NCBI GenBank assembly: GCA_963837465.1
Contig: CAWINB010000001.1
Span: 297,036 to 361,035 of the forward strand
DNA from: Candidatus Doudnabacteria bacterium
GTDB taxonomy: Bacteria; Patescibacteriota; Doudnabacteria; UBA920
Length of the DNA stretch: 64,000 nucleotides
Reading direction: 5' to 3'
Part shown: positions 55,925 through 60,342 of the stretch, in pieces
How the letters are laid out: each line of letters starts with the position of its first letter
Position numbering within the stretch: the stretch's first letter is position 1
Program-made: the position numbers and the translations under genes
Notes under the pieces: generated by a model
Database searches by the model: none
The model's input: only the letters and a program-made list of their open reading frames with translations
Told to the model about the DNA's origin: nothing

Positions 55925-55999
55925 GGCCTCGTAGCTCAATGGATAGAGCAGTGCTCTTCTAAGGCATTGATGTTGGTTCGATTCCAACCGAGGCCACCA
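55925..55999 (+). tRNA. tRNA-Arg(UCU), CCA encoded
   Basis: ggcctcg...tagctcaatggatagagca; anticodon loop cuUCUaa; T gttgg-ttcgatt-ccaac; cgaggcc-a-cca. Confidence 0.85.
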
Positions 56000-57473
56000 C
56001 GTTGGATTTTTTACCCTGGCATTCCTGATTTATCTTATAGACTTGGGATAACTTGGCGGTTCCAAACTTCTCTCCGTCATATTTAATTTTGTCTTTGAAA
56101 ATCATTTTTTGAAAACGTAATTTAGCTGAATAATCGGCTTCATTCCACGTTTTTGCGGTGGTTCTAACAAACTCAAAACAGTAAGCTAAAGATTCTTCCA
56201 TATTAAATTCTTCAACCCTGCTCTCTTTTATGAGCAGGTGTTTTGCATTTATGGAGTTATTGATTTTATTTTTCTGGTCTAAAAATTCTTCGTCTGAATA
56301 TTTACCGCTTCGGTGAAAGTCAAAAACCTTTTGCCGTTCCCGTTCCAGCTTGGCAATTTCATCTCTAACCCTAGAATTTTGTTCATCTAGCTTTTTATAA
56401 TTTTTCTGCCAAATATCTATTACAACCGCTTTAAACATTTTTTCGTATTTACCGCTTGGGGTAATTTCTGTTAGGTATTCGGTAAAAGTCTGCTCAAACG
56501 TATCTTTTGGTATTGATAAAGCCAATTCACAACTCTGTCGGGCGTGATGATAGTAAGGATATTTTTTACCTTTCCTGCCAGTTGAGCTGCTGCCAGTAAT
56601 TGAACTTCTGCATATCTCACAAAGGCAGCCCCTAAGCGGAAACAGAGGGTTATTGGCAAAGCGTGGCGCTAGGTGAGCCGATTCTTTGTAACCCTTTTGG
56701 CATTTGTAAAACAGCTCTTTCGAAACAATCGCTTCAAACTTACCCTCGTGTTCGCCCCAAACATTTATCACTCCGCAATATACAGGATTTTTTATAATAT
56801 GCTCTAGTAGCTGGCCGTAAATTCGTTTGCCGCTTTTTGTTCTAAGCCCCCTATCAGCTAAAAATTTGCATAAACTTTTGTAAGTGTAAGTTCCTTTAGC
56901 ATATTCTTCAAAGGCCAAGAGGATTAAAGGTGCAATGCTTTGCTCTGGCGCAATGTTAGAGCCTTTAGCTGGCCGGTAATATCCTAAGGGTTCTGTCCAT
57001 ACCCAAACACCTTGCTTAACACGTTCTAACATACCGCCTTTAGTGCGTTCAGTCCGAACATTATTATCAAACTCTGCAAAAACAGACAATACACCCTCCA
57101 TTGCTCGGCCAATCGGCGTTTCGTCTATCGGTTCAGTAACAGAGCGTAATTCCACGCCACAGCGTTTTAAAAACGCTCTAACTGTAACGTGGTCATCTTG
57201 GTTACGAGCAAAGCGGTCTAGCTTATAAACTATAAAATAACTAACCTTGTTTTTCTTATCCGAACAAAAGGCTAGAGCTTTGTTAAACTCCGTTCTGTTG
57301 GCCGTTTTTGCGCTCTCACCACGTTCTATAAACACCTTTAGCAGATTCAGCCCTTGTCTGTCGGCGTACTCCTTAGCTTGCCGCTCTTGGGTTTCTAAGC
57401 TAGTTCCCTCTAGCTGGTCTTTAGAGGAAACACGGGCGTAAATAATAGCATTTTTTTGTATCTCTTGGTTCAT
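55959..57473 (-). CDS. Large serine recombinase; 3' end overlaps tRNA-Arg(UCU)
   Basis: N-terminal resolvase domain AIIYARVSSKDQ (catalytic Ser) plus recombinase and zinc-beta-ribbon domains; 504 aa. Confidence 0.85.
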   Translation of the reverse strand: MNQEIQKNAIIYARVSSKDQLEGTSLETQERQAKEYADRQGLNLLKVFIERGESAKTANRTEFNKALAFCSDKKNKVSYFIVYKLDRFARNQDDHVTVRAFLKRCGVELRSVTEPIDETPIGRAMEGVLSVFAEFDNNVRTERTKGGMLERVKQGVWVWTEPLGYYRPAKGSNIAPEQSIAPLILLAFEEYAKGTYTYKSLCKFLADRGLRTKSGKRIYGQLLEHIIKNPVYCGVINVWGEHEGKFEAIVSKELFYKCQKGYKESAHLAPRFANNPLFPLRGCLCEICRSSITGSSSTGRKGKKYPYYHHARQSCELALSIPKDTFEQTFTEYLTEITPSGKYEKMFKAVVIDIWQKNYKKLDEQNSRVRDEIAKLERERQKVFDFHRSGKYSDEEFLDQKNKINNSINAKHLLIKESRVEEFNMEESLAYCFEFVRTTAKTWNEADYSAKLRFQKMIFKDKIKYDGEKFGTAKLSQVYKINQECQGKKSNVVASVGIEPTSMP

Positions 57474-57496
57474 AGGTTAATTATGGCACTACCGGC

Positions 57497-57661
57497 TTAT
57501 AAATCAATAACCACGTTAGATTTTTGGAACCGCTCTTTTTGCCACTTTTCATAGGCCAGCTGTCCTAAGCCGTACATATCGTTAAGCACTTCTAAAACCT
57601 CCTCATCGGTAAGATTGGCTAATTGAGGCTCAATTTTTCGGCATTGTTCAACTGTTAGCAT
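57497..57661 (-). CDS. Small protein (54 aa) just upstream of the serine recombinase gene
   Basis: Manual translation MLTVEQCRKIEPQLANLTDEEVLEVLNDMYGLGQLAYEKWQKERFQKSNVVIDL; possible Xis/RDF-like accessory (inference). Confidence 0.35.
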   Translation of the reverse strand: MLTVEQCRKIEPQLANLTDEEVLEVLNDMYGLGQLAYEKWQKERFQKSNVVIDL

Positions 57662-58083
57662 ATATACTTAGCCAGTCGCCTTTTTCTACTTTTTGACTGA
57701 TAATTTAAGTGCAAACACTCTCTGCACCACGGCTCTTTGGTTAAAGAATAACGATATAAATATTTAACTTTTCTTTTACAAATATTGCATAAAAAGTAAA
57801 AAATATACCCCTCATTATCAGGCAAGTTTGAGGGAACAAAATCAACCCGTTGTGTCTTCCAAAAAGGCTCTCCATATTTAATATCTTTTACCGACTTAAA
57901 TTCCGTATTACTTGGATTGTCCAGTTTTCTTTTTAACTCCTGCGCTTGGTATAGAGATTTAACCCTTTTAGGCAAAATCATCGTTTTATCACGGTGATAT
58001 AAGTCAAAACAGCACTCCGTGATATAGTCAGTAATATTGACTCTGTCTAATTCGTTTTCAAACATTGTTTTCCCGCCCCTCAA
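57655..58083 (-). CDS. Zinc-ribbon-containing hypothetical protein
   Basis: CxxC...CxxC pairs (CNICKRK...CRECLH). Confidence 0.4.
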   Translation of the reverse strand: MRGGKTMFENELDRVNITDYITECCFDLYHRDKTMILPKRVKSLYQAQELKRKLDNPSNTEFKSVKDIKYGEPFWKTQRVDFVPSNLPDNEGYIFYFLCNICKRKVKYLYRYSLTKEPWCRECLHLNYQSKSRKRRLAKYIC

Positions 58084-58286
58084 GAATCTCTAGAAAATAC
58101 TAGGAAACTTGAAAAAATAAACAAAAAAAGGCCTAATGGCCAAACCTAAAAAACTTTAGATTAAACCATTAGACCCGTGGCGATATACGCCTTAGTCGTT
58201 TATATAATTTTACTAACTATATTCAGTATAACAAATTGATAAAATATGTCAAACCAAGAATTATTTTTACTTGCTAGCAATGTCGC

Positions 58287-58895: not shown

Positions 58896-59189
58896 TTAAT
58901 GCTTGAACAGATGTTCAAATAACATACCCACCAAAACAGAAGCCGCAGAAGTTAGAATAATTGTAAGCCAATAGCCCACACTTTTATACAGTCTGGAGTC
59001 AAGCTCCATTCCAGCATATTTTCTTACCTTTTCCATAAATGGAACAGAATCAACATATTCGGCTATAACTAATTTAATATGTTGCCTATTTTTTTCGTGC
59101 TGAAGACCTTCTAAAACAATTTCCCACAGGTGGTCATCAGAAGCTGGTGGTATTCTATCTTGTAATAATTCTTTAGATTTATTGCCCAT
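58896..59189 (-). CDS. Small protein with C-terminal transmembrane helix
   Basis: ...YWLTIILTSAASVLVGMLF; overlaps the upstream ORF by 11 nt. Confidence 0.35.
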   Translation of the reverse strand: MGNKSKELLQDRIPPASDDHLWEIVLEGLQHEKNRQHIKLVIAEYVDSVPFMEKVRKYAGMELDSRLYKSVGYWLTIILTSAASVLVGMLFEHLFKH

Positions 59190-59445
59190 CTTTTTTCGGT
59201 AAATTGTCAGAAGTGGGAGGAATTTGTTGTTTGCTTCTTTCTAAAATAGAAATTGCAAATTTTAAAACATCAAGTTCGTTTTCAACAGCAAATCCTTTGC
59301 CTTTATAAAATGCCGCCAACTCTTTTAGTTGGTCATAAGCACCATTAGTAAAATCTACAGAGTATCCCTCTTTTTCTTGCCCGTCCTCTGAAATTGTTTG
59401 TTTTTGACCAGTTAAAGGCATATATTTTTTATTCTCATTAAGCAC
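59179..59445 (-). CDS. Hypothetical small protein (88 aa)
   Basis: ORF only. Confidence 0.35.
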   Translation of the reverse strand: MLNENKKYMPLTGQKQTISEDGQEKEGYSVDFTNGAYDQLKELAAFYKGKGFAVENELDVLKFAISILERSKQQIPPTSDNLPKKDGQ

Positions 59446-59563
59446 ATTTAATATAGCATATTTTTATTTATCAAAAAAGCCTCCAGTTACCTTTCTAATC
59501 ACGATAGGCAGTTTTAAAAGCCTTTGATATAATATAAAAAGCTCTAATAATAATCAAAAATTT

Positions 59564-59863
59564 ATGGAACTCCAACAGTTTATATCCGACACCCTATTTA
59601 ACATCAAAAGCGGTTTGTCAGACGGCAACAAAAGAATTGCGGAAGCAGATAAAAGGCTAGACGGTCTTTTTGTTATGAACCAAGGCGACCTAATAGCATT
59701 TGATATTGCTGTTACTGTAAATGACGAAAGCTCTGGCAATGTAGGAGCGGGAATAAGAATTGCTTCTATTGGCATTGGTTCTGACTTAGAAACTAAAACG
59801 GCTCAAGGGAGCGTAAGCAGAATTAAGTTTTCTCTTAAAAGTAATTTTAACCAAGTAAGGTAA
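59564..59863 (+). CDS. Hypothetical small protein (99 aa)
   Basis: ORF only, plus strand within the element. Confidence 0.35.
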   Translation: MELQQFISDTLFNIKSGLSDGNKRIAEADKRLDGLFVMNQGDLIAFDIAVTVNDESSGNVGAGIRIASIGIGSDLETKTAQGSVSRIKFSLKSNFNQVR

Positions 59864-59979
59864 GTTCCACCGATTCTAATCACAGTTGGTAGTTTTAAAA
59901 TGCACTGTAGTAATATAAAAAAGGTTAAATACTAAAAACCTTTTGGCTTAAAGCAAATTCTTTCCACTCCTTAAGCTCG

Positions 59980-60342
59980 TTAATTAGCTGGTTCCAATCT
60001 GCCCCAACGAGGGCCACCAGAGTTCAATCTGACACGATTTGCGATCGTTTGAAAATCATTTTTCCAAATAACCACAATACTTTTAACACCATTTTGATCT
60101 TCCCATTTTAAGTTTTCCACTAAACTTTTAATTAGCTGCCGTCTTCCTTCTGAAAGAGCCTCCCGATATGACAGGGATGGCTTTTTTAGTAGTTTTCCAA
60201 TTTTAGCTATGTGGTCTAAAATTTTGCTATCCGCTGTCGGAACAGCTACTTCGGCTGCCATTCGGTGGCCTGGAGCAGGCCAAAAGCATTGCCTTCGGTG
60301 TCTACGGCGCGGGAAAACCAGCCAAGGCCCTTCATTTCCCAC
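59980..60342 (-). CDS. Hypothetical protein (probable internal start)
   Basis: ORF only; the N-terminus overlaps the downstream gene. Confidence 0.3.
   Translation of the reverse strand: MGNEGPWLVFPRRRHRRQCFWPAPGHRMAAEVAVPTADSKILDHIAKIGKLLKKPSLSYREALSEGRRQLIKSLVENLKWEDQNGVKSIVVIWKNDFQTIANRVRLNSGGPRWGRLEPAN
59986..60016 (+). other. Degenerate copy of the tRNA-Arg(UCU) 3' end; candidate attR of the integrated element
   Basis: ggttccaatctgccccaacgagggccacca versus tRNA 3' ggttcgattc-----caaccgaggccacca (about 21/25 identical with a 5-nt indel); same orientation as the tRNA. Confidence 0.35.

What the first reader, a model, noticed from the sequence alone, without database searches (positions are those of the whole stretch)
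55925..60020. ~4-kb integrative element at the 3' end of tRNA-Arg(UCU) using a large serine recombinase
The serine recombinase ORF (55959-57473, minus strand) ends inside the tRNA gene. A degenerate copy of the tRNA 3' end (ggttccaatc...acgagggccacca) lies at 59986-60016 in the same orientation, a candidate attR. The interior encodes a 54-aa possible Xis/RDF-like protein, a zinc-ribbon protein, two secreted or membrane small proteins, and an overlapping small gene pair (58896-59445) whose second member has a C-terminal transmembrane helix. tRNA-targeting with a serine rather than tyrosine integrase is uncommon. xerC lies on the other side of the tRNA.
Basis: partly seen in the sequence, partly recalled or inferred. 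Interest (0 to 1): 0.6.

Follow-up and report, generated by a model that had tools for sequence, protein, structure and literature searches.

The report
Serine-recombinase mini-element inserted at tRNA-Arg
A 4-kb mobile element sits at the end of a tRNA-Arg gene in a Patescibacteria (CPR) genome, and it belongs to a large, apparently undescribed family whose serine recombinase gene spans its own attachment site, so that insertion swaps the enzyme's tail for antisense tRNA sequence.

Summary
tRNA-Arg(UCU) lies at 55925-55999. A 504-aa large serine recombinase (LSR, 55959-57473, minus strand) reads antisense into it. GC content drops across 56000-60019.

The "degenerate tRNA copy" is really at 59990-60019. 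It is not a displaced tRNA end. Only 8 bp (GGCCACCA) are shared with the tRNA, and the stretch encodes the missing C-terminal tail of the LSR. Joining 60019 to 56000 gives an in-frame 522-aa LSR whose tail matches the tail of free circular relatives (4,614 and 4,905 bp).

More than 1,600 homologues exist, mostly in Patescibacteria. Of the top 120, 97 end in antisense-tRNA peptides. In 23 of 33 fetched loci the LSR overlaps a convergent tRNA gene.

attP carries a T-loop-like motif 5 bp further from the crossover than the tRNA's own T-loop, the known attP/attB signature of LSRs.

A relative joins the tRNA directly to the sequence right of attR, which confirms the junction. That sequence is the 3' end of a second, 29%-identical LSR, so 60020-60249 is the relic of an earlier occupant.

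The element also carries a LOOT RNA (Rfam RF03000), found in 9 of 20 related loci.

Excision of this particular copy was not shown.

The parts
55925..55999 (+). tRNA-Arg(UCU), intact, with encoded CCA. It forms the left half of attB/attL.
   Evidence: ARAGORN; Rfam RF00005, 72.1 bits
55992..55999 (.). attL identity core GGCCACCA. The crossover is inferred within 55993-55996 (G70-A73 of the tRNA).
   Evidence: these 4 nt are identical between attP and attB in all 8 elements compared
55959..57473 (-). Large serine recombinase, integrated form (504 aa). The last 12 residues (SVGIEPTSMP plus part of VVA) are encoded by antisense tRNA.
   Evidence: Pfam PF00239 and PF07508; PHROG 95 integrase, E 8e-79; over 1,600 homologues
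57497..57661 (-). 54-aa two-helix protein, a conserved partner lying immediately upstream of the LSR. Candidate directionality or accessory factor.
   Evidence: present directly or closely upstream of the LSR in all 10 elements compared; no match to any known family
57655..58083 (-). 142-aa zinc-ribbon (CxxC-x19-CxxC) protein, first gene of the putative operon with the 54-aa ORF and the LSR. Not conserved in relatives.
58225..58252 (-). Promoter-like site TTGACA-16-TG-TATACT (11 of 12) upstream of the 142aa-54aa-LSR gene string.
   Evidence: a consensus match only
58287..58652 (-). 121-aa protein with an N-terminal transmembrane/signal segment and a Pro/Thr-rich linker, 46 nt downstream of the LOOT RNA.
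58699..58820 (-). LOOT RNA (Rfam RF03000), full-length match.
   Evidence: 84.9 bits against a gathering score of 46.4, E 1.5e-15; also present in 8 related LSR loci
58863..58882 (-). Intrinsic-terminator-like hairpin after the 88/97-aa gene pair.
58896..59445 (-). Overlapping 88-aa and 97-aa ORFs (the 97-aa one has a C-terminal transmembrane segment). Cargo of unknown function.
   Evidence: no significant hit in Pfam, NCBIfam, PHROGs or PADLOC
59564..59863 (+). 99-aa ORF with a sub-threshold Trypco2 match, flanked by 48-nt direct repeats at 59493-59540 and 59874-59921.
   Evidence: E 0.013; 16.2 bits against a cut-off of 24.2
59925..60017 (-). Detached 3' segment of the LSR gene. It encodes VALVGADWNQLINELKEWKEFALSQKVFSI*, the tail of the free-form enzyme. 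The same stretch is the P arm of attP, with the TTGGAACC motif.
60012..60019 (.). attR identity core GGCCACCA. The right end of the element is at 60019.
   Evidence: the L095 tRNA is contiguous with the sequence homologous to window 60020 onward
60020..60249 (-). Remnant (C-terminal ~77 codons) of a second, distantly related LSR from an earlier element at the same tRNA.
   Evidence: 74% identity, E 4e-41, to residues 412-495 of the intact 508-aa LSR of L095. That LSR is 29% identical to the window LSR.

Best explanation
Window 56000-60019 is the integrated form of a 4.0-kb episome-like element of a Patescibacteria (CPR) bacterium. It entered the very 3' end of tRNA-Arg(UCU) by serine-recombinase (LSR) site-specific recombination.

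Shown:
- The LSR gene itself spans attP.
- In the free form the gene would encode a 522-aa protein ending in a conserved 'WNQ(L/I)..EL..W..F' segment, predicted to be helical in a free-form homologue.
- After integration this last segment lies 4 kb away, at the other end of the element (59925-60017). The gene now runs into the tRNA in antisense and ends in 'SVGIEPTSMP'.
- attP and attB share only a 6-9-bp core. Four bases are common to all elements and cover G70 to A73, the top of the acceptor stem plus the discriminator.
- The P arm of attP carries a T-loop-like motif (GAATTGGAACC) 5 bp further out than the tRNA's GAATCGAACC.

Inferred:
- The zinc-ribbon domain of the LSR reads the universal T-loop sequence and the recombinase domain reads the acceptor/T stem. 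This would let the family hop between tRNA species (Arg, Glu, Met, Ala, Ile, Ser).
- The 2-bp crossover lies at about C71/G70.
- The tRNA body stays host-derived, and the element supplies only the last few bases (including CCA) and the downstream DNA.
- The tail swap makes the enzyme from a free circle differ from the enzyme from an integrated copy, a built-in record of state that probably biases direction, as reported for Mx8 IntP/IntX.
- The conserved 54-aa partner acts with the LSR, possibly as the directionality factor.

The element landed next to the stump of an older, different LSR element, so this tRNA is a reused landing site. Cargo is a LOOT RNA followed by a membrane/secreted protein gene, plus small ORFs of unknown function.
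For: LSR domains. GC trough. In-frame 522-aa reconstruction with the family tail. Of the 120 best homologues, 97 end in antisense-tRNA peptides (G[IVF]EP and similar) and 14 in the WNQ tail; a 15th, P0044, has a long tail of that kind.

The homologue P0006, which has a WNQ tail, lies on contigs of 4,644 bp from 8 samples. The 5 read are in different rotations, have a 30-nt terminal overlap and show 0 mismatches, which gives a 4,614-bp circle. A second contig closes in the same way to a 4,905-bp circle.

In 23 of 33 related genome loci the LSR 3' end overlaps, or in two cases reaches to within about 210 nt of, the 3' end of a convergent tRNA. The tail-coding segment is found 4.2-5.8 kb upstream of the LSR, and ~9.9 kb in L040, on the same strand in 7 further loci; E-values are 7e-11 to 9e-9 in five, 5e-4 in L040 and 3e-3 in L017.

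The cores and the 5-bp motif shift are aligned. The shift matches the LI integrase attP/attB rule (PMC3783163).

In L095 the tRNA-Arg(UCU) is directly contiguous with the homologue of window 60020 onward. In L093 and L096 tRNA-Arg(UCU) has no LSR next to it. The 54-aa partner is conserved in all 10 elements. The AF2 model of P0006 has the tail as helix 500-526 (pLDDT 71-76) after a coiled-coil at 343-420. The LSR-B remnant is shown.
Against: No excised circle or empty-site junction of this exact element was found: the JGI contig scan was empty, and the 522-aa free-form sequence is absent from the 15-billion-protein collection. The only other copy (L001) is the identical integrated form.

The B' side of attB shows no conserved motif, so how the right half-site is recognised is unexplained. 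No replication gene is present in the window element or in the two circles, so it is unknown how the circles persist. The functional effect of the tail swap and the role of the 54-aa protein are inferences. The literature check was limited to open-access text.
Confidence: 0.85

Rival explanations
1. A classical tRNA-gene island made by a tyrosine integrase (the adjacent XerC-like gene). In this reading 59990-60019 is the displaced, decayed original 3' end of the tRNA, and the serine recombinase is only cargo or a resolvase.
For: The tRNA lies between the XerC-like gene and the island. The right-end copy resembles the T arm and acceptor end.
Against: The ATP-grasp/XerC pair is syntenic in relatives whose tRNA-Arg lies elsewhere and carries no such island. 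Identity is only 8 bp. The copy is 5 nt longer than the tRNA segment and encodes, in frame, the conserved tail of the LSR. The same LSR/tRNA overlap recurs in dozens of loci without a neighbouring XerC.
Confidence: 0.03
2. The element is a fixed, no longer mobile relic. The integrated LSR lacks its native tail and cannot excise, and the locus is simply inherited vertically.
For: No circular or empty-site junction was found for this element. The only other occurrence is identical and integrated. The neighbouring LSR-B shows that such elements do decay in place.
Against: The LSR and the 54-aa ORF are intact, and so is the detached tail segment, with no frameshift across 4 kb. 97 of 120 homologues are intact integrated forms that are 57-79% identical to the window LSR, which argues for selection on the integrated gene. 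Close relatives occur as circles.
Confidence: 0.25
3. It is the integrated state of a small replicating plasmid or virus, an integrative rolling-circle replicon, rather than a purely integrative element.
For: Two related elements carry an HUH Rep (PF23343, E 5e-23 and 1e-17) just upstream of the partner-LSR pair. Two relatives assemble as closed circles in several samples, which suggests that the circular form is abundant.
Against: No Rep, primase, capsid or packaging gene is recognisable in the window element or in the two circles. Close relatives are essentially absent from IMG/VR: the best full-length hit is 31% identical, and the only closer hit is a partial 54% match, L101.
Confidence: 0.3

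Closest known systems
Streptococcal ICEs integrated in rumA, which use a serine integrase (Ambroset et al. 2016, PMC4701971)
   Same: An att site lies inside the serine integrase gene, so the excised and integrated elements encode integrases of different length and C-terminus.
   Different: Their target is a protein-coding gene (rumA), the elements are large and conjugative, and the hosts are Firmicutes. Here the target is a tRNA 3' end, the new tail is antisense tRNA, and the element is 4 kb with no transfer genes.
Myxophage Mx8 IntP/IntX and SSV1-type integrases, which have attP inside the integrase gene
   Same: Integration changes or splits the integrase gene. For Mx8 the integrated form has a short replacement C-terminus and lower activity (as summarised in PMC4701971, and PMC4383910).
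   Different: These are tyrosine recombinases with long identity segments. The enzyme here is a serine recombinase with an 8-bp core.
Listeria phage A118 (LI) integrase attP/attB architecture (Rutherford et al. 2013, PMC3783163)
   Same: In attB the zinc-ribbon-domain motif lies 5 bp closer to the crossover than in attP. Here GAAYC ends at position 24 in the tRNA and at position 29 in attP, in 8 of 8 and 10 of 10 sites respectively.
   Different: Sequence relation is distant. The motif here is the tRNA T-loop, and the same DNA encodes the W-N residues of the enzyme's own tail.
SPbeta SprA (YokA) with its small RDF SprB (PDB 9dxh, 9dxd)
   Same: It is the closest full-length LSR with a solved structure (E 8e-7 over residues 138-407), and it uses a small RDF.
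   Different: The similarity is low. The 54-aa partner shows no detectable similarity to any solved protein.
Islander-type tRNA-gene islands (Hudson, Lau and Williams 2015, PMC4383910)
   Same: The element integrates at a tRNA gene and the gene remains intact.
   Different: Those islands use tyrosine integrases and leave a displaced tRNA fragment. [quoted passage not shown]
LOOT RNA motif (Rfam RF03000; Weinberg et al. 2017, PMC5737381)
   Same: The window RNA matches the full model well above the gathering score.
   Different: The text I could read gave no function or genomic context for LOOT. Here it is tied to LSR elements and to a downstream membrane-protein gene.

Membership tests
Large serine recombinase (serine integrase) | N-terminal resolvase catalytic domain with the nucleophilic serine | tested here: met
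   PF00239, E 6e-33, residues 9-157. R14-V15-S16-S17 are invariant in the family alignment.
Large serine recombinase (serine integrase) | Recombinase domain followed by a zinc-ribbon domain with an embedded coiled-coil | tested here: met
   PF07508, E 2e-14. PF13408 is recorded for many homologues. Cysteines C285, C288 and C315 are invariant. The AF2 model of homologue P0006 shows strands at 293-312 and long helices at 343-390 and 396-420.
Large serine recombinase (serine integrase) | Short att sites that share a central dinucleotide, with the attB zinc-ribbon-domain motif 5 bp closer to the centre than in attP | tested here: met
   Cores are 6-9 bp. Four bases are identical between attP and attB in 8 of 8 elements. 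The motif shift is 5 bp, matching the rule in PMC3783163. This is a sequence-level test only.
Large serine recombinase (serine integrase) | Catalyses attP x attB integration without host factors, and excision with an RDF | not testable with these tools
   Requires a recombination assay.
Tyrosine-integrase tRNA-gene island (Islander type) | A tyrosine integrase encoded on the island | tested here: not met
   The only tyrosine recombinase (54645-55814) lies outside the island and is syntenic with the ATP-grasp gene in relatives that lack the island.
Tyrosine-integrase tRNA-gene island (Islander type) | A displaced tRNA fragment as a long direct repeat at the far end | tested here: not met
   Only 8 bp are identical. 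The far-end copy is 5 nt longer and is protein-coding.
Elements with the att site inside the integrase gene (Mx8, SSV1, rumA ICEs) | attP lies within the integrase ORF, so the integrated and free forms encode different C-termini | tested here: met
   504-aa integrated form against 522-aa reconstructed form. The two tail classes are seen across homologues. The circular relatives carry the long form.
Elements with the att site inside the integrase gene (Mx8, SSV1, rumA ICEs) | The two enzyme forms differ in activity or direction | not testable with these tools
   Inference by analogy only.
LOOT RNA (RF03000) | Covariance-model score above the Rfam gathering threshold over the full model | tested here: met
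   84.9 bits against 46.4, model positions 1-121 of 121.
Recombination directionality factor (54-aa ORF) | Binds the cognate LSR and switches it to excision | not testable with these tools
   The only evidence is strict co-occurrence and adjacency with the LSR in 10 of 10 elements. There is no homology to known RDFs.
Toxin-antitoxin or anti-phage defence cargo (88/97-aa pair, 99-aa ORF) | A significant match to a known toxin, antitoxin or defence family | tested here: not met
   No hit in Pfam, NCBIfam, PHROGs or PADLOC. There is only a sub-threshold Trypco2 match (E 0.013) for the 99-aa ORF.

The most novel reading that the evidence does not exclude
These are members of a large, so far undescribed class of minimal (4-6 kb) episomes that may be a main vehicle of gene exchange in Patescibacteria/CPR. 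The class would be defined by four features: (1) an LSR that targets the universal T-arm and acceptor end of tRNA genes by means of an attP that mimics the T-loop; (2) an attP embedded in the LSR gene, so that the enzyme's C-terminal helix is present only in the free state and acts as a built-in directionality switch; (3) a dedicated 50-75-aa partner protein; (4) frequently a LOOT RNA acting as leader or regulator of a secreted/membrane-protein cargo gene. This would give the orphan LOOT motif its first biological context.
Probability: 0.35. Interest if true: 0.8.

Novelty: new variant of a known kind. Interest (0 to 1): 0.62.

Why it matters
Integration into tRNA genes has been treated as the province of tyrosine integrases. 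[quoted passage not shown] This family has more than 1,600 detectable members, does exactly that, and does it in a readable way: attP copies the T-loop at the 5-bp offset expected for LSR sites.

That makes three questions directly testable:
- How an LSR retargets between sites, since the T-loop stays constant while the acceptor stem varies.
- Whether a C-terminal tail that exists only in the free form controls direction.
- What moves genes in CPR bacteria, whose mobile elements are poorly known.

Short, factor-independent LSRs that land in conserved tRNA 3' ends without damaging the gene would also be attractive genome-engineering tools. The link between LOOT RNA and these elements gives a starting point for an RNA motif with no known function.

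Tried and rejected
1. I suspected early that 60020-60340 was a remnant of the same LSR. BLASTP against the window LSR, a DNA alignment and a family HMM over all six frames of the window found nothing. tblastn against all fetched loci found only the identical L001. The question was settled only when L095 showed that the stretch belongs to a different LSR.

2. I tested whether the stretch was a truncated DUF1801 gene, because DUF1801 follows the VOC gene in relatives. 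This was rejected.

3. I used the VOC/glyoxalase gene as a synteny anchor for an empty site. Its neighbourhood is not conserved.

4. One degenerate pattern covering attB, attP, attL and attR found no match in the JGI metagenome contigs.

5. An exact look-up of the reconstructed 522-aa free-form LSR showed that it is not in the collection.

6. Cargo function was searched in Pfam, NCBIfam, PHROGs and PADLOC, and nothing significant was found. A profile of the 54-aa partner against the PDB also found nothing significant.

7. IMG/VR viral contigs hold no close full-length relative. The best full-length hit is 31% identical, and there is one partial 54% hit, L101. A viral nature is therefore unsupported.

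8. An unbiased search starting from LOOT was not feasible. The nine LOOT copies share too few invariant bases for an exact-pattern scan.

9. Literature searches for an existing description of tRNA-targeting LSRs in CPR found none, but only open-access text was searched.

Full report
OBSERVATION

ARAGORN finds tRNA-Arg(tct) at 55925-55999 (+), and Rfam confirms it. The ORF 55959-57473 (-) is a 504-aa protein with Resolvase and Recombinase domains. PHROGs calls it an integrase (E 8e-79). Its last 41 nt run antisense through the 3' half of the tRNA.

GC falls to 0.32-0.43 between about 56000 and 60000, against 0.45-0.53 on both sides.

The second tRNA-like stretch is at 59990-60019, slightly to the right of the stated coordinates. 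The perfect match, GGCCACCA, is no more than chance. The gapped pattern CCAACNNNGGCCACCA occurs only at these two places, with 0.02 expected.

WHAT THE RIGHT-END COPY REALLY IS

The 120 best of more than 1,600 homologues (57-79% identical, all about 505 aa) end in one of two ways:
- 97 end in peptides such as ...KSxLVAPRGIEPLLPG. This is what the antisense strand of a tRNA acceptor/T arm encodes.
- 14 carry a longer tail...LVALVGxxWNQ(L/I)xxELxxWxxF..., and a 15th (P0044) has a long tail of that kind.

Read on the minus strand from 60017 down, the window encodes exactly the second tail: VALVGADWNQLINELKEWKEFALSQKVFSI*. Joining 60019 to 56000 gives an uninterrupted 522-aa LSR.

So attP lies inside the LSR gene. 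Integration cuts off the last 26 codons (LVGADW...) and leaves them at the far end of the element. The gene instead runs into the tRNA.

The right-end "tRNA copy" is therefore the P arm of attP. It is not a displaced tRNA end. The element is 56000-60019, 4,020 bp.

FREE FORMS EXIST IN RELATIVES

The long-tail homologue P0006 lies on contigs of exactly 4,644 bp in eight samples. The five I read start at different points, have a 30-nt terminal overlap and are otherwise identical. They represent a 4,614-bp circle. P0042 lies on a 4,935-bp contig that closes in the same way, giving a 4,905-bp circle.

Both circles encode the long-tail LSR and, directly upstream of it, a homologue of the window's 54-aa ORF. 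Neither has a recognisable replication gene.

THE ARCHITECTURE IS A FAMILY TRAIT

A scan of one genome per species returned relatives mostly from Patescibacteria (Paceibacterota, Saccharibacteria, Parcubacteria, Taylorbacteria, Kaiserbacteria). A few came from Acidobacteriota, Bacteroidetes and others.

In 23 of the 33 loci scanned, the LSR 3' end overlaps the 3' end of a convergent tRNA, or in two cases reaches to within about 210 nt of it. The tRNAs are Glu, Met, Ala, Ile or Ser.

An HMM of the tail finds the detached tail segment on the LSR strand in seven further loci. It lies 4.2-5.8 kb upstream of the LSR, and about 9.9 kb upstream in one locus. E-values are 7e-11 to 9e-9 in five loci, 5e-4 in L040 and 3e-3 in L017.

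All-against-all comparison of ten elements shows that only two genes are shared by all: the LSR and the 51-75-aa protein just upstream of it. Everything else is variable cargo. Two elements carry an HUH Rep (PF23343).

ATT SITES

I aligned attL and attR of eight elements and attP of the two circles. This shows:
1. Identity cores are only 6-9 bp.
2. Four bases are identical between attP and attB in every element. In the window they are 55993-55996, GCCA, which is G70 to A73 of the tRNA.
3. The motif TTGGAAYC lies at positions 22-29 from the tRNA end in all ten attP sites. The tRNA T-loop GAAYC lies at positions 20-24.

The attP motif GAATTGGAACC resembles the T-loop GAATCGAACC and its GAAYC lies 5 bp further out. 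For Listeria A118 integrase, the zinc-ribbon-domain motif of attB lies 5 bp closer to the centre than in attP, at half-site positions 11-19 against 16-24 (PMC3783163). Applying that numbering puts the crossover at about C71/G70, inside the 4-bp window obtained independently from the identity cores.

I infer that the zinc-ribbon domain reads the T-loop and the recombinase domain reads the acceptor/T stem. The same DNA encodes the W-N of the enzyme's tail.

In several hosts (L010-L012, L017) the reconstructed attB lacks an encoded CCA, and the element supplies it.

JUNCTION CHECK IN RELATIVES, AND A SECOND LSR

Relatives were found through the neighbouring XerC gene. They keep the ATP-grasp/XerC pair.

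In L093 and L096, tRNA-Arg(UCU) has no LSR next to it.

In L095, the tRNA is followed at once by a sequence clearly homologous to window 60020-60140. This confirms the junction at 60019|60020.

That sequence in L095 is the 3' end of an intact 508-aa LSR, which also reads antisense into the tRNA. It is only 29% identical to the window LSR. Its residues 412-495 are 74% identical (E 4e-41) to the open frame at window 60020-60249.

The window therefore holds the stump of an earlier, different LSR element, and the present element inserted into the regenerated tRNA end. The locus is a reused landing site.

L001, a 5,175-bp contig from another run, is identical to window 55519-60693. It adds no information on mobility.

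CARGO

A promoter-like site at 58252-58225 precedes the 142-aa zinc-ribbon ORF, the 54-aa ORF and the LSR. A terminator-like hairpin follows the 88/97-aa pair. None of the cargo proteins matches a known family. The 99-aa ORF has only a sub-threshold Trypco2 match.

Unexpectedly, 58699-58820 (-) is a full-length LOOT RNA (RF03000; 84.9 bits against a gathering score of 46.4). It overlaps the first ~30 codons of the mechanical 167-aa ORF, so the real gene is probably the 121-aa membrane-anchored protein starting at 58652.

LOOT is also present in L008, L010 and L011. It is also present in L019, L021, L022, L023 and L026, where the LSRs are more distant (33-38% identical) and target tRNA-Met or tRNA-Ala. 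That makes 9 of 20 loci scanned, counting the window.

In every case LOOT lies on the element side, 0.1-4.2 kb upstream of the LSR. In at least eight it lies 15-163 nt upstream of an ORF with an N-terminal hydrophobic segment. In L010 that ORF starts 59 nt downstream of LOOT, by my own reading.

STRUCTURE

An AF2 model of the free-form homologue P0006 (mean pLDDT 78.7) shows the usual LSR layout: catalytic domain, recombinase domain, zinc-ribbon strands and a coiled-coil at 343-420. The tail forms a separate helix at 500-526 with pLDDT 71-76. This helix lies entirely beyond the crossover.

The closest solved full-length relative is SPbeta SprA.

MECHANISM: SHOWN AND INFERRED

Shown at sequence level:
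- The element boundaries.
- The intragenic attP and the two enzyme forms.
- The short core.
- The shifted T-loop-like motif.
- Circular relatives.
- Reuse of the site by a second LSR.

Inferred:
- The exact crossover dinucleotide.
- Which domains read which motifs.
- That the tail difference biases direction, by analogy with Mx8 and as suggested for rumA ICEs (PMC4701971).
- That the 54-aa protein is a cofactor.
- That LOOT regulates the downstream gene.

Not shown: excision of this copy. No junction was found.

COMPARISON WITH WHAT IS KNOWN

The enzyme passes every sequence-level test for a large serine recombinase. The locus fails the defining tests for a tyrosine-integrase tRNA island.

An att site inside a serine integrase gene has a precedent in streptococcal rumA ICEs. 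The tyrosine-recombinase precedents are Mx8 and SSV1.

I found no description of tRNA targeting by serine integrases:
- The Islander paper states that it was unknown.
- The large LSR survey does not mention tRNA.
- Tycheposons include a small minority with LSRs, but the passages found by my term search gave no detail.

I therefore rate this a new variant of a known kind. The caveat is that only open-access literature could be searched.

VERDICT

The deeper structure makes it more interesting than a routine genomic island. That structure includes the intragenic attP with a tail swap, the T-loop mimicry, family-wide tRNA targeting in CPR bacteria, the stump of a second LSR, and the LOOT RNA module.

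Noticed in passing
window 58699-58820 (-); also L008 5690-5812, L010 9547-9663, L011 8020-8144, L019 7587-7705, L021 7265-7386, L022 1004-1121, L023 6465-6580, L026 2411-2536: A full-length LOOT RNA (Rfam RF03000, an orphan motif) sits inside the element and inside 8 related LSR elements. It is always on the element side. In at least 8 of 9 cases it lies just 5' of a gene for a protein with an N-terminal transmembrane or signal segment. LOOT may be a leader or regulator of that cargo gene.
   Followed up: partly
window 60020-60249 (-): C-terminal stump of a second large serine recombinase. It is 74% identical to the intact 508-aa LSR that abuts tRNA-Arg(UCU) in L095, and that LSR is only 29% identical to the window LSR. 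The stump ends right at the stop codon of the VOC/glyoxalase gene. This points to serial use of the same tRNA, followed by a deletion.
   Followed up: yes
window 55925-55999 and 62297-62373; L093, L095, L096: In three relatives, tRNA-Arg(UCU) and tRNA-Arg(GCG) lie 180-380 bp apart on the same strand. In the window they are 6.3 kb apart and convergent. This suggests an inversion or rearrangement around the landing site, possibly recombinase-mediated.
   Followed up: no
window 59493-59540 and 59874-59921: Two 48-nt direct repeats (77% identical) flank the plus-strand 99-aa ORF. The first contains an extended -10 promoter-like sequence. The second lies immediately beyond the stop codon of the detached LSR tail segment. 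Their function is unknown.
   Followed up: no
L010, L011, L012, L017 (attR regions): In these hosts the reconstructed empty site has no encoded CCA after the discriminator, whereas the tRNA next to the integrated element has one. The element therefore donates a genomically encoded CCA end.
   Followed up: partly
L012 (263-aa ORF) and L017 (215-aa ORF), just upstream of the partner-LSR pair: Two related elements carry a rolling-circle Rep (PF23343 REP_ORF2-G2P). L017 also carries a ResIII/DEAD helicase with integrase repeat units. Some family members are thus probably replicating integrative plasmids or viruses.
   Followed up: partly
L018 (Hyphomicrobiaceae contig, LSR at 10001-11533): A 44%-identical LSR with an intact long WNQ tail lies in a 1.36-Mb contig with no adjacent tRNA. 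It may be an unintegrated-type gene in a chromosomal or large-replicon context.
   Followed up: no
window 47941-53247 (-): A 1,768-aa secreted protein with many repeated Ig-like/HYR-like segments lies a few kb upstream, in a higher-GC stretch (0.49-0.55). It is a typical giant surface protein of CPR bacteria.
   Followed up: no
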